NCBI GenBank assembly: GCA_965231145.1
Contig: OZ246420.1
Coordinates: forward strand, 270,001-302,000
Origin: Candidatus Saccharimonadota bacterium
GTDB taxonomy: Bacteria > Patescibacteriota > Gracilibacteria > Absconditabacterales > Absconditicoccaceae
Length of the DNA: 32,000 bases
Direction of reading: 5' to 3'
Each line of letters starts with the position of its first letter. The first letter of the stretch is position 1. Shown here piece by piece: positions 1-26,459 of this stretch. The position numbers and the translations under genes are program-made. The notes beneath the pieces were generated by a model. That model saw only the letters and a program-made list of their open reading frames with translations, was not told the origin of the DNA and ran no database searches.

Positions 1-1
1 G

Positions 2-2650
2 TTAAATCTCAATGGTACTGCCAATACAAGTGTAGTGACGATACAGAACACTCTGCCAGCAAGCTATACAAAAGCTGCGTGGGTAAAATTTGGTACAACC
101 AATAATGGCTCATATAGTATTTTATCAAATGGAACAACACCTTCTTCAAGTCCAGATTTTTTTTGGGTCTCCACTGGCACATATGGATGATCAGCTATCC
201 TGGGTCTCAAGGCTGGTCCTATAACGGCTGGTAATAATGCAGTGTGGAGTACAGGAGCATTTCCTACAAATACTTGGACGCATGTCGCAGTTACTTTCGA
301 TGGTTCTACTAAACAGTACAGACTCTATCAAAGTGGTGTGTTAGTCGGCCTGGCTACCGGTACTTCTTCGCATGCAAGTACTGCTCAGGCTATTGGAGCT
401 TATGCGACTACTCCTTCTGCAAATACCTTTAATTGGACAGGACAGTTAGACGATGTTCAGTTGTGGGATAGTGTATTAACAGAGGCTCAGATAGGAGAGG
501 TTATGAATCAAAATAATGGCGATGGTGTCACTCCTGCTGTTCCTGATTTCCCTACATCACTAGAAGCTTTTGCATACGATGCCAATGCCGTTTATCTTAC
601 TTGGACTGGGGTGGGAGCTACACCAGTAGTAACAGACTATCAGATAGAGTATAAGATAAACACAGGTTCTACTTGGAACGTATTTTCTGATTCGGTGAGT
701 ACAAGTACGACAGGGCTTGTGACGTGATTGATCAACAATCTTGTCTATGATTTCAGAGTGTCGGCTATCAATGCTAGCGGAACGTGACTTCCAAGCACTG
801 TAGTGTCGTGAACTGCAGTACCCTTACCGGAGCCACAATTTCTTCTTCGTTTTGAAGACACATATGACGATGTTTCGTCTCATGCAAATCACGGTACTGC
901 TACAGGAGCAATAGCAATAGTTACTGATGGAATCCGTGGCAAGGTAGCTCGTTTTATTGGTTCTATAGGTAATTATGTGACTGTTAATGTTCCCTTGGGA
1001 ACGACAGGATTTACCAAGGCGGCATGGATATATATTCCAGTTGGTACAACTATGAGTGCTCGTAATATTATCTCGAATAGCCCGTATGGAGGAAGTAACT
1101 CCAGCTTTCTTTGGGTAGATAGTTCAAAATTACAAGTTGGTCATTTCTCAGGAGCCGCGGCTCCGATCTTTGCTGCTGACCCTGCTAATATGACTTCGGG
1201 ATCCTGGGCGCATGTTGCTGTAACTTATCAGCCAGCATTGAAAAAATATATGCTTTATAGAAATGGAGCGCTTGTTGCCAGTGGCTATTCTATTCAAAAT
1301 CCAAATCCAAGTACAGGAACTATTATCTGAGCATATAATACAACCGCTGTTACATTTTCTGGATTTATGGATGATGTTGAAATGTGGAATAGCGCATTAA
1401 CTCCTGCTCAGATTCAATTAGTCTATGAGGGTAATACGTGAGTTCCGGTAGGCGTACCAGTTGCTCCTGCTAATTTTACTGGTACTACAGCAAGTAGTAA
1501 TAAAGCTACGTTAATCTGGTCGTGAGTGTCAGCTATTTTACCGGTAACTGACTATCAAATAGAGTATAAAATCAGTACCTGATCAACGTGGACGGTCTTT
1601 TCTGATGGAGTAAATACAGGTACAAGTGTCGTTGTTACAGGTCTGACGACCAATCTCTCATATGATTTTAGAGTGGCAGCGGTCAATTCTGCTGGTACTG
1701 GAGCAGTGACAAATGTTGTATCTCTCTCGCCAATTGTTGTTTCTGTGCCTCAGCCTCAATTTCTCCTGGGATTTGAAGGAAATTATGAAGATATGTCTAT
1801 CAATAGAAACAATGGAATAGCGACATGAACGCTTCCCATTATTACCGATGGCACTCGTGGGAAAGTAGTCAATATCAATGGTGTTGTAGGTAATTATGTT
1901 TGATTAAATGCCTCTCTCAATGTTTCGGGATTTACCAAAGCTGCATGGGTATATGTGGTGCCTGGTACGAATGTGGCTGCGCGTAATATATTGTCCAATG
2001 GATCCTACGGAGGAAGTAGCTCCAATTTTCTTGTCTTAGATGCGGGGGTACTGAAGGTAGGTCACTTTTCATGAGCTTCTATTGCATATTATGCGTCAGA
2101 CTCAGTAGCTTTTGGTTCATGACAATGGATACATGTAGCTACTACTTATAATTCAACTACGAAAAAATATATGCTCTATAGAAATGGAGCGCTTATTGCG
2201 AGTGGAACTGCCGTGACTGATCCTTTTGCAAGTACAGGAACTACTGTCGGAGCCTTTAATATAACAGCTGTAACATGGTCTGGATATGTGGATAATGCAG
2301 AAATGTGGGATAGTACTCTTACTCCAACTCAAGTACAGGCTGTGTATGAAGGTAATCTATGAGTGCCCGAAGATGTGCCATATGTGCCGTTAAATTTCTA
2401 TTCTCCTTCGGTAAGTACAGGAGTTGTAAATCTTATATGGTCTTGAGTTACATCTCTATTACCGGTGACTGACTATCAAATAGAGTATAAAATCAGCACC
2501 TGATCAACGTGGACAGTCTTTTCTGATGGAGTAAGTGCCAATACGACATGAGCTGTCACATGATTGATCGATAACCTTTCTTATGATTTTAGAGTGGCTG
2601 CGGTCAACTCTGCATGAACAGGTAGCTATTCAACTGTCGCTACTGCTGCG
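2..2650 (+). repeat. Three tandem coding modules of about 920 nt (about 307 aa), each LamG-like lectin + FN3; the first is truncated by the window edge.
   Basis: PQFLLRFEDTYDD at about 833 and PQFLLGFEGNYED at about 1754 are 921 nt apart. Near-identical DNA ccggt[a/g]actgactatcaaatagagtataaaatcag[t/c]acctgatcaacgtggac occurs at 1541 and 2461. Confidence 0.8.
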
Positions 2651-5600
2651 CCATGATTGTTCATTTTTTATCATATTCTTTCTAATGGTCAGAGTATTTC
2701 AGTGGGATATAACTCGACTCCTGCTCTTTCTTTGAGACAACCATATAACAATCTTGCGTTATGAGGAGGAGATCCTTTTTCGTCGTGATGACTGTTGTGA
2801 CCGCTCATAGAGTCAGGAGTAGAAAGTCCATCTGCTGGATTGGCAAACGCTTTAAGAGCGTATAGCTGAACGTTATCTCGCCCGATAATTATAGGATTGC
2901 ATGGTTTATGAGCGACATATTATTCTGATATAAAAAAGTGAACAGCGCAATATGCGAAAGGTATGGCACAGGCAGCACTGAGTAAGTCTCTTGTAGAAGC
3001 CGCGTGAGGAGTCTATCGTCCTCTTGGTGTGACGATTGAGCATGGAGAGTTTGATGCTCGGGCCTGAAATTTTATGCTGTATGAATCATATTTGGTAGAG
3101 TGGCAAAGAGATTATCAATTTGATATAAACGCACTGATGGGAACAACGGGGGTTGTTTTTCCAATGTTCTTAGATCAGGAACAATCTTCTCGAACATGAT
3201 GAGTTGCTGTAGCGCAGCTTAATGCACATAGAAATAATCCAGGAAAAATATTTCTCGTAGGTCCGAAATATCAATATTCATATGGTAGTGATAATTTGCA
3301 TCTTACTAATACGTGATCGAAATTTCTCGGCGAAATGCTAGCGAAGGTTATGTATAAGGTGGCGATACAGTGACAAACATGGAATCCGCTTATGCCTACT
3401 TCAGTCATAAGAACATGAGGTAATGCTATCCTCGTGAGTTTTAATATCCCAGTTGGAACACTCAATATCGATACGTGATCGGTAGCAGCACGTCAAAATT
3501 ATGGATTTGAATACTATCAGAGCGGAGGTACAGCTACTACAATTAGTGGAGTAAGGCTTTTGAGTTGAAATACTATGGTAGAAATAACGTTGAGTGGGGG
3601 ATTCGATGGAACTGGCCAAAAACTGCGCTATGCGTGGACGTGCTGATTTCCTGTTGTTACAGGTCAATGGGGTCATTGTGCGAATGCAAGCTCATGACTT
3701 TTTGTCGGTGGTAACATTCGTGATAGTGATTCGAGTATTTCTCCATCAGTAGATGGAACGGGACTGCCTTTATATAACTGGCTCGTCACTTTTGATGAAA
3801 GTATCATCACTCCTAGTGTTCCAAATGCGCCTACAAATGTCACAGCAGTTGCGAGTAGCTGACAAGCTATCATTTCATTTAGCTGATCGACCAATAGTGG
3901 TGGTGCAGCTATCACTGAGTATGTAGTTGTTTCCTCTCCATGATCTATTACATTTACGGGAACAGGAAGTCCTATTACGGTAACATGACTGACGAACTGA
4001 GTGAGCTATACGTTCGCAGTAGCAGCGAAGAATTATGTGGGAACAGGAACCTTCAGTAGTGCGTCAAATCCTGTAGTGCCTGCAACAATACCAACCGCAC
4101 CGACGAACGTCGCGGCGACAGCAAGCAGCTGACAAGCAGTGGTGGAATTCAGCGGCTCATCAAGTAGTTGATGGTCTACTATTTTGTATTATATAGCAAC
4201 CTCATCACCGTGAAATATAAGCTTCACCGGAACATGAAGTCCGATCACGGTAACATGATTGACGAACGGAGTCTCATATACCTTCACTGTAGAGGCATAC
4301 AATGCAATAGGAACGTGAGAAATAAGTAGTCCATCAAATGCGGTAGTTCCAGCGACAGTGCCAAATGCGCCGATCAACGTCGCGGCGACAGCAAGTAGCT
4401 GACAAGCAGTGGTAGCATTTAGCGGTTCGACTAATAGTGGTTGATCAGAGATTTTGTATTATGTGGCAACATCAACTCCGTGAAACATATCATTTACGGG
4501 GACTGGAAGTCCCATCACGGTAACGTGACTGACCAATGGAGTGAGTTATACATTCACAGTAGCAGCGGTTAATGCTATTGGTGCCGGAGCAACAGGATTA
4601 TCAAATGCTGTTATTCCTGCAACAGTACCAGGTGCGCCAACAGCTGTAAGTGCAACATCAAGTAGTGGTCAGGCGATTGTCTCATTTACCGCTCCGGCAA
4701 ATAATGGCTGAACTGGAATACTCTATTATATAGCAACCTCATCACCGTGAAATATAAGCTTCACCGGAACATGAAGTCCGATCGCGGTAACGTGATTGAC
4801 GAACGGAGTGAGTTATACATTTACAGTAGAAGCGTATAACGCGGTATGAACAGGAGCGGCAAGTAGCGCATCAAACGCAGTGATACCAGCAACGGTGCCA
4901 ACAGCACCGACGAATGCAACAGCAGTAGCATGAAGCGGACAAGCTATTATTTCATTCAGCTGATCTACCAATAGTGGGGGCTCACAGATTCTTTATTACA
5001 TCGTTACTTCATCACCAGGAAGCATCTCGCTTACGGGAAGTGAAAGCCCGATAACTATTACAGGTTTGACCAATGGCGTGAGTTATACATTTACAGTAAT
5101 AGCGGTCAATGCTATAGGAACATCATCAGCAAGTAGTGCCTCAAATGCAGTAGTTCCTGTGACACTTCCGGGTGCGCCAACAGGGGTGAATGCAACATGA
5201 GGAAATGCACAAGCTACTATTTCATTTACTCCGCCAGCAAGTAATGGAGGCACTGGTATAGTAGAATATATCGTCACATCAAATCCGTGAAACATTATAT
5301 TTACGGGGACTGAAAGTCCCATCACGGTAACGTGATTGACCAATGGAGTGAGTTATACATTTACTGTAGTAGCAAGAAATAGAGTAGGTTCGTGAGATGC
5401 AAGCGCAGTATCAAATGCTGTTATTCCTGCGACTGTCGCAAATGCACCGACGAATGTGGCAGCGACATCGAGCAGCTGACAAGCTATTGTGTCGTTTAGC
5501 TGATCGACTGATAGCGGAGGATCTGCCATCTTGTATTACATTGTAACATCAAGCACAGGAAATATTGTTGTAACATGAGCAGATAGTCCTATTACAGTCG

Positions 5601-8209
5601 CGGGATTGACGAATGGAGTTACATATGCGTTCACTGTAAGTGCTTACAATGCAGTAGGAACAGGAACAGCAAGTAGTGCTTCAAATGACGTCATGCCTAT
5701 TACGGTGCCAACAGCTCCGATCAATGTCTCCGCGACATGAGGTAATCAGCAGGCGACGATCAGATTTACTTGATCGATAAATAACGGTGGAACCTGAATC
5801 TTGTATTATGTGGCAACATCAAACCCAGGAAACATATCATTTACCGGAACATGAAGTCCGATCACGGTAACGTGATTGACTAATGGAGTGAGCTATACAT
5901 TTACCGTCGCTGCAATAAATGGAGCGGGTACGGGAGTATTGAGCAGCTCATCAAATGCTGTAATTCCAGCAACAGTAGCAAACGCACCAACCAATATCAT
6001 AGCAACAGCAAGTAGCTGACAGGCGGTTGTGTCCTTTAGTGGATCGAGTGATGATGGATGATCGACAATCCTTTATTACGTAGCGACATCAAATCCAGGA
6101 AACATTAGTTTTACTGGTACATGAACTCCAATAATTATAGAATGATTGACCAATTGAGTGTCATATACGTTTACGGTAGCTGCAAGAAATGCAGTTGGAA
6201 CCGGAGCGGCGAGTGCTGCGTCAAGCAGCGTGACACCAGTAACGATGCCATGAGTACCATCAAACATCCAGGGAGCAGGAACGCTGGGGGAAGCAATATT
6301 TGATTTTGATGCACCAGTGTATAGCGGAGGATCTGCGTTACTGTATTATACGATTAGATCAAGCACATGACAGCTAGCAAAAACTGGAGTAAATAGTCCA
6401 ATGACACTAACATGACTCACCAATGGAGTAACATATACATTCTTTATCGCAGCAGTAAATGCGCAGTGAGAAGGAACAAGCGGGGCAGTAACATTTACTG
6501 TCACAACTCCAACCACTATTCCGAGTGAGCCTACGAATATCACAGCGATAGCATGAAGTTGATCAGCATTGCTCAGTTTCAGCACCCCGACTGATAATGG
6601 AGGATTACTTATTGATTATTACGCTATTAGATCATCTACAGGTGCTCTCATAAAGACAGGAGCAAATAGCCCAATAAGGATGACATGATTACAGAATGGA
6701 ATAAGTTATGCATTTAGCGTCTCAGCAGTAAATGGAGAGTGAGAAGGTCCTAGCGACACAGTAACGATAGAGCCGATTGCTCTTATTGTAAATGGTGGTA
6801 GCATAAGTGTTATACTATGATCTACAAGTATGATAGCAAATTGGACGACAACTATTAGAGCTTCAACACAAATCCAGTATGGTATTACGACATGATATAC
6901 ATTGCAGAATACGGAAAGAGACGTATCAAATCGTGTGACCTTACATAGTGGGAATATCCAATGATTGCTTACCTGTACAAAGTATAACTACAGAATTATT
7001 GGTTCAGATGATGAAGGATATCGCTATACAGGAACAAATAGCACATTCACCACGCTAGGCTGCCCAAACAATGCGCCAATTCTCACACAAGAAGAAGAGA
7101 TTGTAGAGGTGCCAGTAGGATGAGTGTTTACTATGACATCAACATTGGGAACGACGTTAGAGCTTATTATCCCTGAGGACGTAGTACTTATCATACCAAC
7201 CCTTCTCTTCCAATGAAAACAATTGGAAGCAAGTACCGCAATTGGTTCTCTTGGCAAGCCATCTAGTGAACTTATTCAGGTGTCAGCGCTCTATGATCTC
7301 CAAGCATATAGTGGGGATACAGATCGCATGACGACCTTTGAAACAGGTCTTACGATGACGTTGAGTTATCGTGATCAGGATGTGAGTTGAGTAGATGAAA
7401 GTACATTAAAAATCTACAGTCATGATGGAACAAGCTGGTCAGAACTTGATAACTGTGTGGTAGATACAGTCAATAAGAACGTTACATGTAATACATCACA
7501 TTTCTCAGCATTCTCCATCTTTGGAGTAGCACTAGGAGTAACGCCAAGTTCTCCATCAGTATGAGGAGGTGGTGGATGAGTGTATCTGACGAAGGATGTG
7601 TGTCCAAACGGAGATTACTCACTGAGCTACTATGACAAGACATGTAGTAGTGTATGACTACCAAACATTGAACAATGAATACTTCGCCTCGCGTTGAACA
7701 AATGTACAGCACAAAATGGCGAAGAGCAGCAATCATACTGCTTCAACCGCGCGATCGGCTCTACAACGATGCCTACATTCATGCAGGCACGTTACTACGA
7801 TCAGATCACGAGAGCGCAGCTGTCGAAGATCATGGGAGAGTTTGCAAAGAATATACTCTGAAAGACTCCAGATAAGAGTAAGCAATGTACGTTTACAGGA
7901 GAAGATCCGGACGGATTAGCAGCATATATGATCCAGGCATGTCAGTTAGGACTGATGAATACAAGCAGACCAAATGACATACTGACAAGAGGAGAGTATA
8001 TGACGGTGCTTTCAAGAATGTTATATGGTAAAACGCATGAACAGACGAATGTGGAAAGTGAAGAACATCCATTCTACGAGTATCATATGGAGCAGTTGTA
8101 TAAGGAATGATTGATCAATAGAAAAGAGCCACTAGTGAAAGCACAAAGACTTGTACCATTCTTGACGCTCTACAGACTCGCACAGAAGCTAGAAAAAGAA
8201 TCAAGATAA
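2..8209 (+). CDS. Giant secreted/cell-surface adhesin-like protein, 5'-partial (2,735 aa in window, table 25). Architecture: 3x [LamG/concanavalin-like lectin + FN3], SASA/SGNH-like esterase-like domain, 11 tandem FN3, two further beta-sandwich domains, Gly linker, Cys motif, SLH-like C-terminal repeats.
   Basis: I hand-translated frame 2 codon by codon from 2 to 8209. There is no TAA or TAG until TAA at 8207-8209, and roughly 95 in-frame TGA. The four plus-strand frame-2 ORFs in the supplied track (242, 977, 2171, 7928) all lie in this frame. LamG_3-like motifs are present (LDDVQLWDSVLTEAQI, MDDVEMWNSALTPAQI, VDNAEMWDSTLTPTQV), as are FN3 motifs (TDYQIEYK...TGL..N..YDFRV.A.N..GTG). A terminator follows immediately. 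Confidence 0.85.
2650..3810 (+). other. Domain of the giant protein: putative SASA/DUF303-type (SGNH-like) carbohydrate O-acetylesterase fold.
   Basis: The ordered motifs resemble the SASA family: HILSNGQSISVGY (GQSN-like nucleophile block), GVTIEHGEFDA (QGEsD-like block) and YGSDNLHLTNTGSKFLGEMLA (D..H block). This is motif-level recognition only. Confidence 0.4.
3821..6780 (+). repeat. Array of 11 tandem FN3 domain repeats inside the giant gene, period 267-273 nt (about 90 aa).
   Basis: Repeat starts (P-x-A-P-T-N-V) are at 3821, 4091, 4361, 4628, 4898, 5168, 5438, 5708, 5978, 6248 and 6521. The consensus is ..AP.NV.AT.SSGQA.VSFSGS.NSGGS.ILYY.ATS.PGNISFTGTGSPITVTGLTNGVSYTFTV.A.NA.GTG..S..SN.V.P. 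Confidence 0.9.
7562..8209 (+). other. C-terminal anchoring module of the giant protein: GGGGGG linker, CPNGDYSLSYYDKTC motif, then SLH-like repeats.
   Basis: The translation reads ...HFSAFSIFGV..VGGGGGGVYLTKDVCPNGDYSLSYYDKTC...YCFNRAIGSTTMPTFMQARYYDQITRAQLSKIMGEFAKNILG...AAYMIQACQLGLMNTSRPNDILTRGEYMTVLSRMLYG...EQLYKEGLI. The (a..Gl......itR.e...m..r) pattern resembles S-layer-homology-type wall-binding repeats. Confidence 0.45.
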
Positions 8210-8212
8210 TAG

Positions 8213-8238
8213 AAAAACTCCCATCTAGGGAGTTTTTT
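8213..8238. terminator. Bidirectional rho-independent terminator shared by the convergent giant gene and the CHC2 gene.
   Basis: The sequence aaaaactccc-atcta-gggagtttttt forms a perfect stem (actccc/gggagt) flanked by an A-run and a T-run. The TAG stop of the minus-strand gene (8225-8227) lies in the loop. Confidence 0.8.
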
Positions 8239-8943: not shown

Positions 8944-8949
8944 TTCTGT

Positions 8950-8986
8950 ATTATATTGAGAATTTCGAATTCAACATTTCGAATTA
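8950..8986 (-). repeat. Stop-codon-abutting 37-nt conserved motif, copy A (after rlmN).
   Basis: The minus strand reads TAA TTCGAAAT GTTGAA TTCGAAAT TCTCAATATAAT. The TAA is the rlmN stop, and the terminator hairpin follows 6 nt later. Confidence 0.8.
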
Positions 8987-10165
8987 TTTTTTAAGTACTC
9001 TCAGGTTCTTCCCCGTCTCTTTAATCTCTTCACGATGTTCATATACTTTTTCATATCCCAGCTGACCGCAGGCACCTTTGACTCAGCGTCCGAGTGTATC
9101 TCTGACGGTTACCGTCACTCATCCTTTTTCAAGGATCTCTTTAAATCTCATGATCTGGTTTCTGCTTGGCTCTTCGAGGTCGATAGCGGGGTTTTCGTTG
9201 TATGGGATAAGATTGATATGTGAGTGAGCAGGTCTTGCTTTGAGGAGGTCTATGAGCTGATATGCGAGTTCTGGCTGGTCAGTCTTTCCCTTGATCATAA
9301 TGTACTCATAGAACACGCTCTTGCCTGTCTTTGTCGTATATTCATCGATCTGTGCCATGAGCTTGTCTAACGTGTACATCTTCGTGATCGTTGGGATAAG
9401 CTCGGAGCGGAGCTCCTGATTTGGTGCGTGGAGTGACAATGCAAGCATGACATCAAGATTGTCATCGATCATCTTTTGTATACCAGGAATAATTCCGCTG
9501 GTAGAGATGGTTACGTGACGACGTGAAAGTGAAAATCCGTTTTGGTCGAGGAGATAGTGTACAGTAGCTTTTACATTGTCATAGTTGAGGAGTGGTTCTC
9601 CCATACCCATGAAGACGATATTTCTGATCATGTACCATGAGTTGTCTTCTTTTTTGCCGAGCTTCTTTTTGAGGTATGCGTTTGCATAGATAACCTGTCC
9701 GATGATTGTTTGGACATCGAGGTTTTTGAGGAGTCCAAGTTTCCCCGTTACGCAGAAGATACATCCAACTGAACATCCTACTTGTGACGAGATACATAAG
9801 GTGAGACGGTTGAGTTTTTTACCGTCAACGAGGGTTGTGAACCCTTTCTTATATTCTTCTGATCCTTCGATAATTTCATGATAGTGGAACATAATTACTG
9901 ATTCGATCACGTTGCCGTCAGGGAGCTTGAAAAGAAACTTCGTTGTGTCTTCAGACTCCTGCATTTCCTGGAGCTCAAAAGGCACAATAGTGAAATTGTC
10001 CGACAATGAATCTCTCAGGTCTTTGCTGAGGGCAGTCATCTCTTGGAAATCAGTCACAGAGTTTTTAAAGATTTCGTGAAAAATCTGTTTCAGACGAAAT
10101 GGCTGAACCTTATGCAGAACTCTTCGTTCTTCTAATTTCTCTTTATCAAAAATAGAGGCTTTCAT
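8984..10165 (-). CDS. rlmN: 23S rRNA/tRNA adenine-C2 methyltransferase RlmN (radical SAM), 393 aa.
   Basis: Radical-SAM CxxxCxxC is present in GCSVGCIFCVTG, with MGMGEPLLNY also present. Reading through TGA at 9119 and 9083 recovers the conserved C-terminus VTVRDTLGRGVKGACGQLGYE (family pattern vR...G.di.AACGQL). The true stop is TAA at 8984-8986. Confidence 0.85.
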
Positions 10166-13780: not shown

Positions 13781-13897
13781 TTGTGAGCGATTTAGTGATA
13801 TGGTGAAGTTATATGAAAATAGTCGGGGTTTACAAATAATTTCCTCAATAATAGAGGAGTAAAATCAAAAATTATGATCTGATATAATGTATGTTTT

Positions 13898-14094
13898 ACT
13901 CCTGCCGGAGGGGCGTTACTTTTTAGCATATCCCTAAAAAGTAACCAAAAAGGTCTAGCCGATTGTAGCACTCTAATATGTGTAACAATCAAGCATTGAC
14001 TACGAAAGCATTTCGTCCTCACGAACTCAATGCTTTACGACAAACTACTTATCCATACACGACTCCGGAGACGTGGGGTACAATCGGCGGGAGT
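13898..14094. ncRNA. Candidate structured RNA element, copy 1 (unclassified; paralogous to 26208..26398).
   Basis: Closing stem ACTCCTG/CGGGAGT (13898-13904 with 14088-14094). Perfect 12-bp hairpin GTTACTTTTTAG/CTAAAAAGTAAC (13915-13945). 9-bp stem CCGATTGTA/TACAATCGG (13959-67 with 14079-87). Conserved core hairpin AAGCATTGA..ACGAAAgcaTTTCGT..TCAATGCTT (13991-14035). The strand is undetermined; an extended -10 (TGATATAAT at 13880-13888) favours plus. Confidence 0.5.
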
Positions 14095-14108
14095 CTGTAT
14101 GGCATATT

Positions 14109-14165
14109 AAAAAACTCGGTACTTACCGAGCTTATTATATAATAAAAAAATCGGCGGATGCCGAC
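14109..14165 (-). terminator. Two tandem rho-independent terminators after the small membrane protein gene.
   Basis: The minus strand reads gtcggcatccgccgattttttt (14144-14165) and gctcggtaagtaccgagtttttt (14109-14132). Confidence 0.75.
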
Positions 14166-14170
14166 TTTCA

Positions 14171-21275: not shown

Positions 21276-21308
21276 AAAAAAACTGAGAGCGTTAGCTCCA
21301 GTTTTTTT
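21276..21308. terminator. Bidirectional terminator between the transglycosylase-like gene and murD.
   Basis: The sequence aaaaaaACTGaGAGCgttaGCTCcCAGTttttttt forms a stem with one mismatch, flanked by A and T runs. Confidence 0.7.
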
Positions 21309-21333
21309 ATATTTAATATTCAACATTTAACAT

Positions 21334-22584
21334 TTATAATTGCTGTACCGCGTGAATGAATTGATGTGCGCGGTCGAGGTAGTCTTTGAACATGTCAAAG
21401 CTGGCGCAGCCAGGGCTCATGAGAATCACATTGATATTATTATTCTTAGCGTACTCATAGGCAAGAGAAACAGCTTCTTCCATAGTTTTTGCATTGGTAT
21501 GTGCTATGCCTTGCTTCTTCGCGATCTCGGTAAATTGAGGAGCAGTAGTACCGATAAATACTCCATAGCCAAGAGTCTGCTTCATAAGATCTCCGAGTTT
21601 GCTGAAGTTATCTCCTTTGTCTGAGCCTCATGCAATAAGTACAATAGGCCCAGGGAAAGCTTCGAGTGCAACATTCAAAGCCTGTGAACTTGTTGCTTTG
21701 CTGTCATCATAGAACTTGATGCCAGATTTCTCAGCAATAAGCTGGATCCTATGATCGAGGGGCTTGATGCTGTTCATCGTCGCATGGATGATATCATCAG
21801 ATACCGAATGGATATCGCTGAGAACTGCTTTTGCTACAAGGTAGCATACTTCAAGATTCCCGGCGTTATGCTTGCCGACAAAGTGCGTATTGTCGAGTGG
21901 GTAGTCATTTCCATACATGGTGATAGGTATGGCATGAGTCAGATCGACATGGTGTTCATGGAGGATGTCCATGACACCAGGCGTTATGAACGCCTGTTTA
22001 TTGGTATGTTGTATGAGAAGATATTTTGTTGCTACATAGTCTGCCATGTCTGGATGCCAGTTGAGGTGGTCTGGCGAGAGATTTGTCCATACGCTGTAGT
22101 CAAAGCGCATATCTTTTAGTCCATAGAGGAGAAATGATGAAAGCTCCGTTACGATGATATGCTTTTTGTTCGTAAGCTCTTTATCGAGGATATGATTGAG
22201 CGTCGTTGCGATAGACTCATCGAAATTTCCGCTCAGCCAGAGATGATGATCGGGGAGGAGTCATTTGAGTAGGTTATACAATACGTGACAGGTTGTTGAT
22301 TTGCCATCGGTTCCCGTAACTCCGATAAATGACAGGTTATCTTTCCATGGCTGTTTCTCGAGAAGCTGGCCAATAAAATTGAGCTCTGAGATAGTCTTGT
22401 GGCCGTATTTTACATAGATATCGCTGTCGGGCTTTACCGCCTGGTGTACAATAATCTGATCGGCTGTATCAAATAGTTCTTCATCCCGAGCATTATAATC
22501 GATACTTTTTGACTCAATCTTAAAGTGTCTGAGTAGCTTCTGAAGTGGAACTCCGATTTTCCCTTGGCCAAAGATTGCGATCAT
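21334..22584 (-). CDS. murD: UDP-N-acetylmuramoylalanine--D-glutamate ligase MurD, 416 aa.
   Basis: GVTGTDGKSTT is the P-loop. DHLNWH, KHNAGN and LIA-G-GSDKGDNF are also present. Three track ORFs share one frame and are joined by TGA at 22261 and 21628. Confidence 0.85.
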
Positions 22585-23422: not shown

Positions 23423-23455
23423 AAAAAAACTCCCGCCTGTTGCAAGGTAGGAGTT
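23423..23455 (-). terminator. Rho-independent terminator downstream of gyrA.
   Basis: The minus strand reads aactcctaccttgcaacaggcgggagttttttt, an 11-position stem with one mismatch and one wobble, followed by a T-run. Confidence 0.7.
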
Positions 23456-23459
23456 CCTT

Positions 23460-23496
23460 ATTATATTGAGAATTTCGCATTTAGAATTTCGAACTA
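23460..23496 (-). repeat. Stop-codon-abutting 37-nt conserved motif, copy C (after gyrA).
   Basis: The minus strand reads TAG TTCGAAAT TCTAAA TGCGAAAT TCTCAATATAAT. The length and register match copies A and B, and the TAG is the gyrA stop. Confidence 0.75.
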
Positions 23497-26016
23497 TTCC
23501 TCGTCACTTTGAGCTTCTTCATCGGCTTTCTTTTCAGCCTTAGTTTCTGCTTTTCTTTCTTCTTTCCATGCGGTGTTTTCTGCTTTTTCTTCCCATGGTC
23601 TGTAGATCGTTTCGATAGTTCCTGTGACGATCTTTTCCATAGGAGTATCCGGCATATCGAGGAGTACCTTATCTGAGTGGATAGTCTTGAGTTCTCCTGT
23701 AGTGAGTTTAATTCTTACTGAACCTTCCACCATAGCGATACCACCGGTAATCTTATCTTTACCTTCGATCTCAGCTACCTGAACGATCTTTCCACCACGC
23801 TTACCAAACTGAGATTTGCCGAACTTGAGATCTTCAAGTGCTATCATCTTCGCAGCGTTAGTACCATTGATAAGGATAAATGGCTCGTTCTTATAGATGA
23901 ACATAGCCGCCGGTCCATCACTTTCGTCCTCCACAGAGATAGCTTTTACGCCTGCAGCAGTTTTACCCATAGGGCGACATTGCTCTTCAGGGAAGAGAGA
24001 AAGGTATCCTTTTTGTGACAGTACTCCAATCTTGTCCTGGTCTCTCACTGCTTCCACTGCGATGATCTTCTCTTTGTCCGCGAGGGTCATGACTGTTGTA
24101 GGGAATTTCTTGAATGAGAGTAACAGTTCTTTTTTAATTTTTTTGAGACTGTTCTGATTTGAAAGGAATACGAGCTCTTTGTAATCATGGAGCATAGAAC
24201 TACAGAAGATCACATTTCCCTTGAGATTCCATTGTTCTTTTGGATCAACGGCAGGGGATTTCATGTTATGAGAGCCGATGTCCTTGAGTCTTTGGATAAC
24301 AAGTTCTCCTTTGTCTGTGATGACGATCAATTTATCTTGGTTATGTGTGTAGACAAGTTCGATCGTATCTTCAGGAAGAACATTTACTCTTGACTGGTAG
24401 AGAATGCGGAACGAATGATCAGCGCCGATCCAGAGGATCACATCTTCTTTTTTAGCATCTTCCTGCTTGAGCAGCTCTTTCATGCTTCCTGAGAGATTTG
24501 CGGCCCCGCCGTCGCCAACAAGCTCTGTTCTTCTTTCATCGCCATACGTTTTCTTCATATATTTCATTTCATCCGTCACCACTTTATCGAGTTTCTTTGG
24601 ATCATTGATGATACCTTCAAGATATTCGATAAGCTTCTTTTTCTCATCCATTTCATCCAAGATCTTCTGGATTTCAAGACCCACGAGGGATTGGAGTCTC
24701 ATCTGGAGGATATATTCCGCTTGAACATCTGAGAACTCAAACTTCTTTCCCATAAGTTTATCCTTCGCTTCCTGCTTATCATTTGAATGTCTAATAGCAT
24801 GGATTACATCATCCAAGATATCAAGCGCACGCTTCAAACCTTCGAGGATGTGCATCCTGTCTTTTGCCTTTCCGAGCTGGAATACAGATCTTCTGTAAAC
24901 AACTTGTCTTCTGAAGTCAGTAAACTCAAGTAAGAGATCCTTGATGTTAAGGAGTCTTGGCTGCATACCTTTTTCTACGAGCGTTACATTATTGATGTTG
25001 AAATTTGTCTGTAGCTCTGTGTACTTAAAGATTTTTGTGAGCACCGCATTTGCATCAACTCCTTTTCTCAAAGTGATACTTACTCTCATTCTTACTCTGT
25101 TAGACTCATCACGGATGTCTGTAACACCATCGATCTTCTTGTCTACCACGAGTTCTCCGATCTTCGCTACAAGCGAAGATTTATTTACCTGGTAAGGTAT
25201 TTCATCTATAACGATAATTTTTCCGTTTTTCCCTTCTTCAATATGTGTTTTCCCTCTCACGGTAATACCACCTTTTCCTGTTTCGTATACTTTCTTGATG
25301 TTCTCTCTGTCATACATAAGACCTCCAGTAGGGAAGTCAGGACCTTTGATAATTTCCATGATATCATCTATCGTTGCATCTGGGTTATCCATCAGCAGCA
25401 AACACGCATCAATAACCTCAGTAAGATTATGTGGTGCCATATTTGTTGCCATACCTACAGCGATACCCATCGTACCATTACAGAGGTGATTTGGAAATTT
25501 CGTTGGCATCATGATCGGCTCCTGACGAGACTGATCATAATTTTCTCTCCAGTCTACTGTATCTTGATCGATATCTTCGATCATCTCTTCAGCAATCTTT
25601 GTCAGTCTCGCTTCCGTATATCTCATTGCAGCGGCGCCGTCTCCATCGATAGAACCATAGTTACCTTGTCCATCAACGAGGGGATACCTCAAAGAAAATG
25701 GTTGAGCAAGTCTTACCATAGCATCGTATACAGAGGAGTCTCCATGGGGATGGTACTTTGCCAGTACTTCACCGACTACTGCTGCAGACTTTCTATACTT
25801 AGCATTGTGCATAAGTCCGATGTCGTACATCGCGTAGAGGATACGTCTGATCACTGGTTTCATACCATCTCTTGTGTCTGGAAGTGCACGAGAAACGATA
25901 ACCGACATCGCATAGTCGATATATGACTGAGTGATTTCTTTTTCGATCGAATGAGGAGTATTGTTTTGTACTATCTCCACTGGTTCATTTTGTTCTTTTT
26001 CTTTCTTTTCAGCCAT
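23494..26016 (-). CDS. gyrA: DNA gyrase subunit A, 840 aa.
   Basis: This is an intact ORF. It carries [20 protein letters not shown] and the active-site [10 protein letters not shown], plus a C-terminal beta-pinwheel region and an acidic/lysine tail. It contains no in-frame TGA. Confidence 0.95.
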
Positions 26017-26063
26017 TTCTTCCTGAAAAACAATAACTAAAAGTGCGTTCGAATAACCAATTC

Positions 26064-26091
26064 ACTATAGAGATTTAGTATGTGTTTGCAA
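26064..26091 (-). promoter_or_regulatory. Candidate sigma70-type promoter for gyrA.
   Basis: The minus strand reads TTGCAA-16 nt-TATAGT, about 50 nt upstream of the gyrA ATG. This is sequence resemblance only. Confidence 0.3.
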
Positions 26092-26207
26092 CTGGTAATT
26101 GCGATAAAATAATAGCTTATAAAAGCCATTTTTAGCGTTTTTCATTGTATGAAAAACTCTAGCAGCGGCGACAGAATTTTACTTGTTATGCTTATATTAT
26201 GAGATGG

Positions 26208-26398
26208 TCTTTTTTCGCCTTCTACGGGACCTACTTTTGCCCCGTATTTACTACGGGGCCCAAAAGTAGGCAAAAGCGCTCTTCACCGATTTTAGCGCAT
26301 AACATGCCAGAGAAACGATTAAGCATTGACTATGAAAGCATCTCGTCCTCACAACTCAATGCTTAATGAAGGATTAGTTATTTACGTGCGGAGTAAGA
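26208..26398. ncRNA. Candidate structured RNA element, copy 2 (paralog of 13898..14094).
   Basis: Closing stem TCTTTTTTCGC/GCGGAGTAAGA (26208-18 with 26388-98). Hairpin CCTACTTTTG..CAAAAGTAGG with inner stem CCCCGT/ACGGGG (26230-26270). Conserved CAAAAG and CCGATT spacers. Core AAGCATTGACTATGAAAGCATCTCGTCCTCACAACTCAATGCTT (26321-26364), nearly identical to copy 1. Confidence 0.5.
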
Positions 26399-26409
26399 TT
26401 TTTTCTACG

Positions 26410-26433
26410 AAAAACTCGACCATAGGCCGAGCT
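26410..26433 (-). terminator. Rho-independent terminator after the acidic hypothetical gene.
   Basis: The minus strand reads gctcggcctatggtcgagtttttcg. Its sequence resembles the 14109-14132 hairpin (aagCTCGG...CCGAGttttt). Confidence 0.7.
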
Positions 26434-26459
26434 TGCATAATGTTATGGAGAATTGTATG

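What the first reader, a model, noticed from the sequence alone, without database searches (positions are those of the whole stretch)
13898..14135. Unclassified structured RNA-like element, copy 1 of a paralogous pair
The 390-bp gap between the PBP gene and the pilin-like gene contains a nested set of stems:
- 7-bp closing stem (13898-904 with 14088-94).
- 12-bp perfect hairpin (13915-45).
- 9-bp perfect long-range stem (13959-67 with 14079-87).
- Two-tier core hairpin (13991-14035).

The same architecture recurs at 26208-26398 with different stem sequences. The core AAGCATTGACTAyGAAAGCATyTCGTCCTCAC(GA)ACTCAATGCTT is nearly invariant between the copies. I could not match it to any riboswitch, RNase P, tmRNA, SRP, 6S or ribozyme consensus I know. 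Track ORF 13792..14022 overlapping it has no coding support.
Basis: seen in the sequence. Interest (0 to 1): 0.75.

Follow-up and report, generated by a model that had tools for sequence, protein, structure and literature searches.

The report
Strain-specific hairpin-rich intergenic repeat pair
Two related hairpin-rich non-coding inserts of about 200 bases sit between genes in one SR1/Absconditabacteria genome; they are real and match no known RNA family, but the closest relatives lack them, so they look like a young small-RNA gene pair or a recombining repeat, not a conserved structured RNA.

Summary
All the stems in copy 1 and the near-invariant 45-nt core are real. The core is 42/44 identical between 13991-14035 and 26321-26364, with 0 matches expected by chance.

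- **No known family.** Rfam 15 gives nothing. The core is absent from 596 Gb of genomes, the JGI metagenomes, IMG/VR, phages and plasmids.
- **Host.** A TGA-sense (code 25) SR1/Absconditabacteria genome.
- **Architecture only partly shared.** Copy 2 keeps the 5' hairpin H1 (two compensatory pairs), a weaker closing stem and the core. It has no partner for the 9-bp long-range stem, and its 3' part is unrelated to copy 1.
- **Insertion polymorphism.** Both copies are missing from the same sites in relatives with 84-94% identical flanking proteins.
  - One sister strain carries a rearranged variant at site 1, without the core.
  - That strain has an orphan protein gene at site 2.
  - Copy 2 shares that gene's + strand promoter and leader.
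- **Not a leader.** The PBP and gyrA promoters lie between the element and those genes, so it is not their 5' UTR.

Best reading (about 0.4): two sibling, species-restricted + strand small-RNA genes with a C-rich anti-ribosome-binding-site loop. Main rival (about 0.3): a MITE-like or recombining palindromic repeat with no RNA function. Interest is modest.

The parts
13880..13888 (+). Extended -10-like box TGATATAAT, 6-9 nt upstream of the first hairpin of copy 1
   Evidence: Read directly from the sequence. The consensus scan, which requires a -35, did not report it. The sister-strain ortholog reads TGGTATCTT.
13898..13907 (+). 5' arm of the closing stem or terminal inverted repeat (ACTCCTGCCG). 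It pairs with 14085-14094.
   Evidence: 10 bp with one U.G on the + strand. The arms resemble the gyrA terminator stem at 23429-23454.
13899..13910 (+). Small hairpin CTCC-TGCC-GGAG
   Evidence: In the sister-strain ortholog it reads CTGC-TGCC-GCAG, a compensatory C-G to G-C change.
13915..13945 (+). Hairpin H1: perfect 12-bp stem with a 7-nt loop
   Evidence: There are two compensatory pairs against copy 2 and one (A-T to G-C) against the sister strain. Logan contigs of three samples abut at 13933|13935.
13946..13969 (+). Conserved single-stranded blocks CAAAAAGGTCTAG and CCGATTGTAGC
   Evidence: Both are kept in the sister-strain variant. CCGATTTTAGC is kept in copy 2.
13959..13967 (+). 5' strand of long-range stem P2, paired with 14079-14087. 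Specific to copy 1.
   Evidence: Perfect 9-10 bp. No partner exists in copy 2 or in the sister-strain variant.
13991..14035 (+). 45-nt core hairpin: 9-bp outer stem, 6-bp inner stem and a 10-nt 3' internal loop CCUCACGAAC
   Evidence: 42/44 identical to 26321-26364. No covariation.
14079..14094 (+). 3' strands of P2 (TACAATCGG) and of the closing stem (CGGCGGGAGT)
14112..14133 (.). Bidirectional terminator hairpin T2 (AAAAAACTCGGTACTTACCGAG). The better U-tract is on the minus strand. A counterpart sits at the same place in relative L007.
   Evidence: It belongs to the generic AAAAACTC...GAGTTTTT terminator type seen across the clade.
14146..14169 (-). Terminator T1 of the pilin-like gene
   Evidence: Conserved in L007 and the sister strain.
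26152..26174 (-). Decayed remnant of the original terminator of the 187-aa gene, now on the far side of copy 2
   Evidence: It aligns to the intact terminators AAAAACTCTAGC..GCTAGAGTTTTTT of L007, L089 and L090.
26168..26200 (+). Weakened + strand promoter of copy 2: GCGACA, 19 nt, TATATT
   Evidence: Window 26170-26242 is significantly similar to the TTGACA-17-TATAAT promoter plus leader of a + strand gene at this site in the sister strain. Score 42 against a null of 22.5+-4, with 0/300 shuffles as high.
26208..26219 (+). 5' arm of the weak closing stem of copy 2. It pairs with 26387-26398.
   Evidence: 10 of 12 positions pair, two of them as G.U on the + strand.
26230..26270 (+). H1 of copy 2: 10-bp outer stem with a nested 19-nt hairpin (26240-26258)
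   Evidence: The 19-nt hairpin recurs in inverted orientation at another position in the sister-strain variant.
26286..26296 (+). Conserved block CCGATTTTAGC, with no pairing partner
26321..26364 (+). Core hairpin of copy 2
26415..26431 (.). Terminator hairpin of copy 2 (CTCGACC-ATA-GGCCGAG). It is the only terminator left for the 187-aa gene.
   Evidence: The fifth pair is A.C on the + strand and G.U on the minus strand. The hairpin is followed by a T-run on the minus strand.

Best explanation
Two sibling copies of a young, species-restricted small non-coding RNA gene, transcribed from the + strand. Predicted transcripts run roughly 13895-14135 and 26207-26432.

Each unit has four parts:
1. 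A sigma-70-type -10 box.
2. A 5' module of local hairpins (small hairpin and H1).
3. A conserved 45-nt hairpin. Its inner stem-loop and 10-nt internal loop expose GCAU...UCGUCCUCAC, the exact complement of a Shine-Dalgarno sequence, spacer and AUG (GUGAGGACGAAAUGC).
4. A variable 3' part that runs into the bidirectional terminator shared with the convergent upstream gene.

**Inferred mechanism.** The C-rich loop pairs with ribosome-binding sites of target mRNAs and blocks translation, as anti-SD small RNAs do. Targets are unknown.

**Shown:** sequence anatomy, paralogy, non-coding nature, position outside the 5' UTRs of the flanking genes, promoter homology for copy 2, and restriction to one lineage.

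**Inferred:** transcription, strand, ends and the base-pairing mechanism.
For: 1. **Uneven conservation.** The core is 42/44 identical and the homologous 5' flank 74/104 (Fisher p = 0.0008). This is the pattern of sibling sRNAs with a conserved seed.
2. **Promoter, copy 1.** A perfect extended -10 box, TGATATAAT, lies just upstream.
3. **Promoter, copy 2.** Its left junction and leader are significantly homologous to a consensus TTGACA-17-TATAAT promoter and leader. That promoter drives a + strand gene at the same site in the sister strain.
4. **Terminators.** Both units end at A-tract/hairpin/T-rich terminators.
5. **Not leaders.** The promoters of PBP (TTGTAA-16-TATAAC, 13835->13808) and gyrA (TTGCAA-16-TATAGT, 26091->26064, conserved in relatives) lie between the element and those genes. 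No + strand gene follows either copy.
6. **Hairpins maintained.** H1 has 2 compensatory pairs against copy 2 and 1 against the sister strain. The small hairpin has 1.
7. **Strand.** Non-Watson-Crick pairs in the body helices are mostly G.U on the + strand (4) and rarely on the minus strand (1).
8. **Composition.** Body GC is 0.43, against 0.28-0.32 for flanking intergenic DNA.
9. **No coding signal.** + strand ORFs are in different frames in the two copies. There is no Pfam hit and no protein family.
Against: - There are no expression data.
- The copy 2 promoter is degraded relative to its homolog: -35 GCGACA and a 19-nt spacer.
- The + strand U-tracts after the terminators are poor. The hairpins terminate better on the minus strand.
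- The orthologous site-1 element of the sister strain lacks the core. There, CCUCAC is paired with an upstream GUGAGG.
- No target stands out among the 32 kb available.
- Apparent compensatory changes in perfect palindromes can arise by intrastrand template switching without selection on RNA.
- Only 2-3 homologs exist, so covariation cannot be tested.
- The terminal inverted repeat and the insertion polymorphism fit a mobile DNA element equally well.
Confidence: 0.4

Rival explanations
1. A non-autonomous mobile or recombining palindromic DNA repeat (MITE-like, or built from terminator-like hairpin modules). It spreads or rearranges at the DNA level in hypervariable intergenic slots. Any transcription is incidental.
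For: - **Insertion polymorphism at both sites.** Relatives with 84-94% identical flanking proteins have empty sites, and at site 2 their original terminator is intact. The window keeps only a decayed remnant of that terminator beyond the element.
- **Terminal inverted repeat.** 10 bp, 9/10 (ACTCCTGCCG/CGGCGGGAGT).
- **Possible target-site duplication.** A 6-bp direct repeat TGATAG-type match, TGTATG, occurs at 13888-93 and 14096-101, next to the insertion boundaries inferred from L007.
- **Modular hairpin turnover.** A 19-nt hairpin appears at different positions and orientations in copy 2 and in the sister strain.
- **Terminator-like arms.** The repeat arms are near-identical to the gyrA terminator stem.
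- **Assembly breaks.** Assemblies break inside the element.
Against: - Only two copies occur in about 52 kb of this genome.
- None occurs in about 177 kb of related loci or in any public collection scanned.
- The centre is the best conserved part and the ends the worst. This is the reverse of a transposase-recognised element.
- The inverted repeat of the younger copy 2 is degenerate (8/12 identical arms), and no convincing duplication flanks it.
- The left part of copy 2 is native promoter and leader sequence of that site, which fits recombination better than transposition.
- No transposase is in view.
Confidence: 0.3
2. Functionless debris. The intergenic slots between a terminator and the next promoter accumulate duplicated terminator-like hairpins and leftovers of lost cassettes. 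The high core identity reflects recent gene conversion between the two loci, not selection.
For: - Site 2 is a variable slot. It is empty in five relatives and holds a fast-evolving orphan 221-234-aa gene in three others.
- Copy 2 is a chimera of that slot's promoter and leader with a body like copy 1.
- The sister strain has replaced the core.
- The 3' parts of the two copies are unrelated.
Against: - Compensatory changes keep three different hairpins intact.
- Conversion limited to exactly the 45-nt hairpin is ad hoc.
- There were no substitutions in copy 2 in a strain that shows 15 SNPs in the adjacent 1.8 kb. This is weak evidence, since the interval is only about 640 nt.
Confidence: 0.2
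3. A minus-strand coding or translational element. Two versions were considered:
- A small protein starting at the GTG in the core (76 aa and 33 aa; type I toxin-like locus with an antisense + strand RNA).
- The 3-codon mini-ORF GAGGA-N4-AUG CUU UCR UAG.
For: - Both minus-strand ORFs begin MRT(K/R)CF(R/H)SQCLIV.
- The indels between the copies inside this frame are +3 and +12 nt. The only frame-breaking 1-nt indel lies just upstream of the GTG (read).
- The mini-ORF keeps Met-Leu-Ser-stop through a synonymous TCG/TCA change.
- Type I toxin loci are typically duplicated, highly structured and narrowly distributed (own knowledge).
Against: - There is no Shine-Dalgarno sequence before the GTG.
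- The ORFs differ in length and diverge after the core.
- There is no Pfam hit.
- Only one marginal hit (E 1e-4, a 25-residue stretch) was found among 1.84 billion representatives.
- The frame is broken by stops and the core is absent in the sister-strain ortholog.
- The element lies after the upstream gene's terminators, with no clear minus-strand promoter or terminator of its own.
Confidence: 0.07
4. A member of a widespread class of structured RNA (riboswitch, ribozyme, RNase P, 6S, SRP or tmRNA relative) that is too divergent for the current models.
For: - Strong predicted folding.
- CPR bacteria often have divergent housekeeping RNAs (own knowledge).
Against: - There is no Rfam match even at E<=10 and no tmRNA.
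- There are two copies.
- It is absent from close relatives at both sites.
- The core is absent from 596 Gb of genomes and from the JGI metagenomes.
- It is not upstream of any gene on its own strand.
Confidence: 0.03

Closest known systems
Sibling trans-acting sRNAs with C-rich anti-Shine-Dalgarno loops (streptococcal csRNAs, staphylococcal RsaE/RNAIII-type UCCC motifs, Qrr-type paralog sets). Comparison from own knowledge.
   Same: - Stand-alone intergenic units with their own promoter and terminator.
- Several paralogs sharing one nearly invariant segment while the other stem-loops drift.
- That segment is complementary to SD plus AUG.
- Narrow phylogenetic range.
   Different: - At about 200-240 nt it is longer than csRNAs.
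- The C-rich motif sits in an internal loop rather than between two hairpins.
- No expression or target evidence exists.
- No sequence or Rfam similarity was found.
- The host is a code-25 CPR bacterium in which no sRNA regulators are characterised.
Bacterial MITEs such as Correia/NEMIS, RUP, ERIC/IRU (own knowledge; reviewed in PMC3184786, which I listed but did not read)
   Same: - Size of 100-300 bp, non-coding and intergenic.
- Terminal inverted repeats that can fold as a long hairpin.
- Insertion polymorphism between strains.
- Can carry promoters or terminators.
   Different: - Only two copies were seen.
- The ends are less conserved than the centre.
- Target-site duplication is unconvincing.
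- No cognate IS is known.
- Copy 2 is a chimera with local promoter sequence.
REP/BIME-type extragenic palindromes
   Same: - Small GC-rich hairpins downstream of genes.
- The hairpins occur in both orientations and combine into mosaics. The 19-nt CCCCGTA..TACGGGG module behaves this way.
   Different: - Not abundant: no further copy in about 100 kb of this and the sister strain.
- No RAYT transposase was seen.
- The element is much larger than a REP.
Type I toxin-antitoxin loci (hok/sok-like long-range 5'-3' pairing). Own knowledge.
   Same: - Duplicated, strain-specific and highly structured.
- A closing 5'-3' helix.
- Small ORFs are present, with possible transcription of both strands.
   Different: - No conserved hydrophobic toxin ORF.
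- No family hits.
- The ORF is broken in the sister strain.

Membership tests
Any Rfam 15 family | Covariance-model score at or above the gathering threshold | tested here: not met
   There were 0 matches in the whole window at gathering thresholds. At E<=10 the only hits were weak ones to terminator-like sRNA models lying over T1/T2 and unrelated noise.
tmRNA / tRNA-like | tRNA-like domain or tag ORF detectable by ARAGORN | tested here: not met
   No gene was found in the window.
Riboswitch / cis-regulatory 5' leader | Lies between the promoter and the start codon of a gene on the same strand | tested here: not met
   On the minus strand, the promoters of PBP and gyrA lie between the element and the genes. 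On the + strand, only the 3' ends of convergent genes follow.
Trans-acting sRNA gene | Own promoter | tested here: inconclusive
   Copy 1 has an extended -10 box, TGATATAAT. The copy 2 promoter is homologous to a consensus promoter in the sister strain but is weakened. This is sequence evidence only.
Trans-acting sRNA gene | Intrinsic terminator at the 3' end | tested here: inconclusive
   Hairpins with an upstream A-tract are present, but the U-tract is good only on the minus strand.
Trans-acting sRNA gene | Detectable transcript of defined size and strand | not testable with these tools
   No transcriptome data are available.
Trans-acting sRNA gene | Conserved seed complementary to target mRNAs | tested here: inconclusive
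   The seed-like core is conserved between the paralogs. A duplex scan of the 32-kb window found no site at a gene start that stands out.
MITE | Terminal inverted repeats | tested here: inconclusive
   Copy 1 has 9/10 matching arms. Copy 2 has about 8/12. The sister-strain variant is interrupted. The same sequences can equally be read as an RNA closing helix.
MITE | Target-site duplication | tested here: inconclusive
   TGTATG occurs at 13888-93 and 14096-101, but 4 nt and 1 nt away from the repeat ends. Nothing convincing flanks copy 2.
MITE | Many copies per genome | tested here: inconclusive
   There are two copies in about 52 kb. The remaining 1.05 Mb of the genome could not be scanned.
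MITE | Presence/absence polymorphism at orthologous sites | tested here: met
   Sites are empty in L005, L006, L007, L089, L090 and L092.
MITE | Cognate autonomous IS with the same ends | not testable with these tools
Type I toxin-antitoxin | Conserved small hydrophobic toxin ORF | tested here: not met
   The ORFs differ in length and sequence beyond the core. There was no family hit, and the ORF is broken in the sister strain.
Intrinsic terminator (for the outer stem) | GC-rich stem directly followed by a U-tract | tested here: not met
   The outer stem matches the gyrA terminator stem in sequence. It is followed by CUGUAUGG on the + strand and AAAAC on the minus strand, and it encloses a 177-nt 'loop'.

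The most novel reading that the evidence does not exclude
The element is a new, Absconditabacteria-specific regulatory RNA cassette (promoter, hairpin module, anti-RBS hairpin, bidirectional terminator). It can be recombined into hypervariable intergenic 'slots' in place of orphan protein genes. That would make it a mobile sRNA gene whose 45-nt core mimics the complement of a translation-initiation region.
Probability: 0.12. Interest if true: 0.55.

Novelty: new member of a known kind. Interest (0 to 1): 0.3.

Why it matters
If it is transcribed, it would be one of the first candidate base-pairing small RNAs in a code-25 CPR bacterium with a genome of about 1.1 Mb. Post-transcriptional regulators are essentially uncharted in such organisms. 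It would also show how new sRNA genes arise by recombination into variable intergenic slots.

If it is only a palindromic repeat, it is ordinary. Its main practical interest is then as a marker of strain-level genome plasticity and as a cause of assembly breaks.

Either way it is not a broadly conserved structured RNA class.

Tried and rejected
- **Rfam.** Nothing at gathering or permissive thresholds.
- **Exact-pattern scans for the core.**
  - Genome contigs: 4 hits.
  - Metagenome contigs: 42 hits.
  - Viral contigs.
  - Every hit lacked the flanking stem and was judged chance.
- **Other viral scans.** The outer stem with any interior gave 42 unrelated hairpins. The 5' blocks gave 0 hits.
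- **BLAST against phages and plasmids.** Nothing.
- **Covariance model of linker plus core.** It found only the two copies in about 177 kb of related loci.
- **5' UTR or riboswitch of PBP or gyrA.** Rejected from the promoter positions.
- **attL/attR of a 12-kb island between the copies.** Rejected, because the intervening genes (hisS, dnaB, murein ligase, gyrA) are syntenic in relatives.
- **Pseudogene remnant of the slot gene.** tblastn found only noise.
- **Protein-coding readings.** Rejected.
- **Integron attC, dif/Xer, IS200/IS605 ends, DnaA boxes.** Considered from memory only. The motifs do not fit in orientation or number.
- **Target search in the window.** No convincing site. A 12-nt match inside dnaE and a 17/19 match inside gyrB are at chance level.

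Full report
**Context**

The window comes from a bacterium that reads TGA as sense.
- Only with TGA as sense does a 2735-codon ORF open at 2-8206.
- The penicillin-binding protein is split at an in-frame TGA in table 11.
- The nearest GyrA homologs that carry a source-given name are labelled candidate division SR1 / Absconditabacterales / Gracilibacteria.
- The window is 100% identical to Logan contigs from ERR4405439-41. Its proteins also occur on a 1,107,293-bp NCBI contig.

**Observation**

- The 7-bp closing stem has one U.G and extends to 10 bp.
- The 13915-45 hairpin is a perfect 12-bp stem.
- The long-range stem has 9-10 perfect pairs.
- The core at 13991-14035 is a two-tier hairpin.

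The region folds far better than shuffles on either strand. That is expected for DNA palindromes and does not identify a strand.

The core motif occurs exactly twice in 32 kb, with 0 expected. It is 42/44 identical, with a single-G indel.

Homology between the copies covers three zones:
- The 5' part (hairpin H1, a CAAAAG linker and a CCGATTNTAGC block): 74/104 identical, z 5.7.
- The core.
- Nothing significant in the 3' part.

The claim that the same architecture recurs is only partly true.
- H1 recurs with two compensatory pairs and a nested extra hairpin.
- A weaker closing stem recurs, with two G.U pairs.
- Copy 2 has no partner for the CCGATT block.
- The alternative long-range pairing in copy 2 competes with its closing stem.
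- The core itself shows no covariation.

**What it is not**

- No Rfam 15 family matches, at curated or at permissive thresholds.
- No tRNA or tmRNA is present.
- The core is absent from all public collections scanned.
  - One genome per GTDB species, 596 Gb.
  - The JGI metagenome collection.
  - IMG/VR.
  - GenBank phages and PLSDB plasmids.
- It is not a 5' leader. The gyrA promoter (TTGCAA-16-TATAGT, conserved in relatives) and a similar PBP promoter lie between the element and those genes. No + strand gene follows either copy.
- Protein-coding readings fail.
  - The + strand ORFs use different frames in the two copies.
  - The minus-strand ORFs share only the residues encoded by the core.
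  - There is no Pfam hit and no family among 1.84 billion representatives.
  - Indels in the minus-strand frame are multiples of three (+3, +12). I record this as a curiosity. The frame is broken in the sister strain.

**Comparative evidence**

I recovered the two intergenic sites from relatives through the flanking proteins.

*Site 2 (187-aa gene to gyrA)*
- It is empty in L007 (GyrA 94% identical), L006 (88%), L089 and L090 (187-aa protein 94% identical, adjacent intergenic DNA nearly identical) and L092.
- In the sequences aligned (L007, L089, L090), the 187-aa gene keeps an intact bidirectional terminator.
- In the window that terminator survives only as a decayed remnant (26152-26174) on the far side of the element.
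- In L005, L091 and the sister strain from SRR24524665 (L093), the site holds a fast-evolving orphan gene of 221-234 aa on the + strand. In L093 a consensus TTGACA-17-TATAAT promoter precedes it.
- Window 26170-26242, the left junction and leader of copy 2, is significantly similar to that promoter and leader. The score is 42 against a null of 22.5+-4, with 0/300 shuffles as high.
- The element carries no remnant of the gene.
- So copy 2 is a chimera: the local + strand promoter and leader joined to a body like copy 1.

*Site 1 (pilin gene to PBP)*
- L007 and L005 lack the element.
- L007 has a hairpin at the position of T2. Terminators of the form AAAAACTC...GAGTTTTT are generic in this clade. 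T2 is therefore best regarded as a shared bidirectional terminator, not as part of the repeat.
- The sister strain has identical pilin protein and a PBP fragment 93% identical. It carries an orthologous but rearranged element. I reconstructed it from two contigs that end inside it, and the 7-nt join is my assumption.
- What that variant keeps:
  - The small 5' hairpin, through a C-G to G-C swap.
  - The top of H1, through an A-T to G-C swap.
  - The CAAAAAGGTCTAG and CCGATTGTAG blocks.
- What that variant changes:
  - It gains the 19-nt CCCCGTA..TACGGGG hairpin of copy 2, in inverted orientation and at another position.
  - It lacks the P2 partner and T2.
  - The 45-nt core is replaced by a palindrome, GGGTGAGGT...ACCTCACCC, flanked by two CCCTCTCC..GGAGAGGG hairpins.

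*Copy number*
- No further copy exists within about 10 kb on either side of the window.
- A covariance model of linker plus core finds nothing else in about 177 kb of related loci.

**Interpretation**

The element is young (species level), insertion-polymorphic and modular. Local hairpins are preserved and long-range helices are not.

Two readings remain.

*Reading I favour slightly: a pair of sibling + strand small-RNA genes.* Its support:
- The steep contrast between core and flank identity (p = 0.0008).
- The promoter evidence at both copies.
- The convergent arrangement on shared terminators.
- The excess of G.U over A.C in + strand helices.
- GC of 0.43 inside AT-rich spacers.
- A core whose unpaired parts are the exact complement of SD, spacer and AUG.

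Its weaknesses:
- There are no expression data.
- The copy 2 promoter is weakened.
- The + strand U-tracts are poor.
- The sister strain has lost the core.
- No target was found in the little sequence available.

*Rival: a MITE-like or recombining palindromic repeat.* It has three kinds of support:
- The 10-bp terminal inverted repeat, whose arms match the gyrA terminator stem.
- A possible TGTATG duplication.
- The presence/absence pattern.

It is undermined by four points:
- The low copy number seen.
- Ends that are less conserved than the centre.
- The chimeric origin of copy 2.
- The lack of any transposase.

Compensatory changes in perfect palindromes can also come from template switching, so they do not prove RNA function.

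**Verdict**

The interpretation as an unclassified structured RNA is only partly supported. This is a lineage-restricted orphan, a candidate sRNA pair or a palindromic repeat, and not a new widespread RNA class. Interest is modest.

Noticed in passing
window 1-8206 (also 3794-6442 and 599-2622): TGA is read as sense (code 25/4). An ORF of more than 2735 codons runs off the left edge. It contains ten 270-bp tandem repeats and three repeats of about 918 bp. Logan gene calls on its fragments carry Laminin_G_3 domains, and assemblies break inside it.
   Followed up: partly
window 8944-8988, 23454-23498 (weaker copy at 21300-21344): A motif of about 42 nt, TTCGAAAT..CGAAATTCTCAATATAATA on the minus strand, is 84-95% identical at two places. 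It appears to cover the stop codon and the first 40 nt of 3' UTR of both rlmN and gyrA, just before their terminators. Its function is unknown.
   Followed up: no
window 13933-13935: In three independent Logan assemblies, the contig from the left ends at 13933 and the contig from the right starts at 13935. This is the signature of an unresolved single-base polymorphism, or a systematic sequencing error, at 13934. That base closes the H1 loop.
   Followed up: partly
window 26240-26258; L088 111-129: A 19-nt hairpin, CCCCGTA-TTTAC-TACGGGG, is nested in the tip of H1 in copy 2. In the sister strain's site-1 element it lies after H1 with its loop inverted. It behaves like a tiny movable or invertible palindrome.
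   Followed up: partly
window 26017-26459; L005 8322-10000; L091 10565-11545; L093 7886-8803: The spacer between the 187-aa gene and gyrA is a hypervariable slot. It is empty in five relatives. In three others it holds a fast-evolving orphan 221-234-aa gene with no Pfam match; a consensus TTGACA-N17-TATAAT promoter was read upstream of it in L091 and L093. In this genome it holds copy 2.
   Followed up: partly
window 23429-23454 (minus strand): The stem of the gyrA intrinsic terminator, AACTCCTACCT..AGGCGGGAGTT+T7, is almost the same sequence as the closing stem or inverted repeat of copy 1. It has the same T.G wobble. L005 has a similar gyrA terminator.
   Followed up: partly
window 8213-8237; L007 4030, 8100; L088 7046; L091 10566, 16213; L093 13700: Bidirectional terminators across this clade share the frame AAAAACTC-N-GAGTTTTT. 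Similarity between terminator hairpins is therefore not evidence of homology.
   Followed up: yes
window 13792-14022 and 26251-26352 (minus strand): ORFs starting at the GTG inside the core share MRT(K/R)CF(R/H)SQCLIV. The indels between the copies in this frame are +3 and +12 nt, and the single 1-nt indel lies just upstream of the GTG. No homologs were found, and the frame is broken in the sister strain.
   Followed up: partly
L075 760-939 and L088 1-100: In the sister strain, the contigs on both sides end inside a large imperfect palindrome of about 120 nt. It consists of two CCCTCTCC..GGAGAGGG hairpins around GGGTGAGGT..AAGCTT..ACCTCACCC, and it replaces the core.
   Followed up: partly
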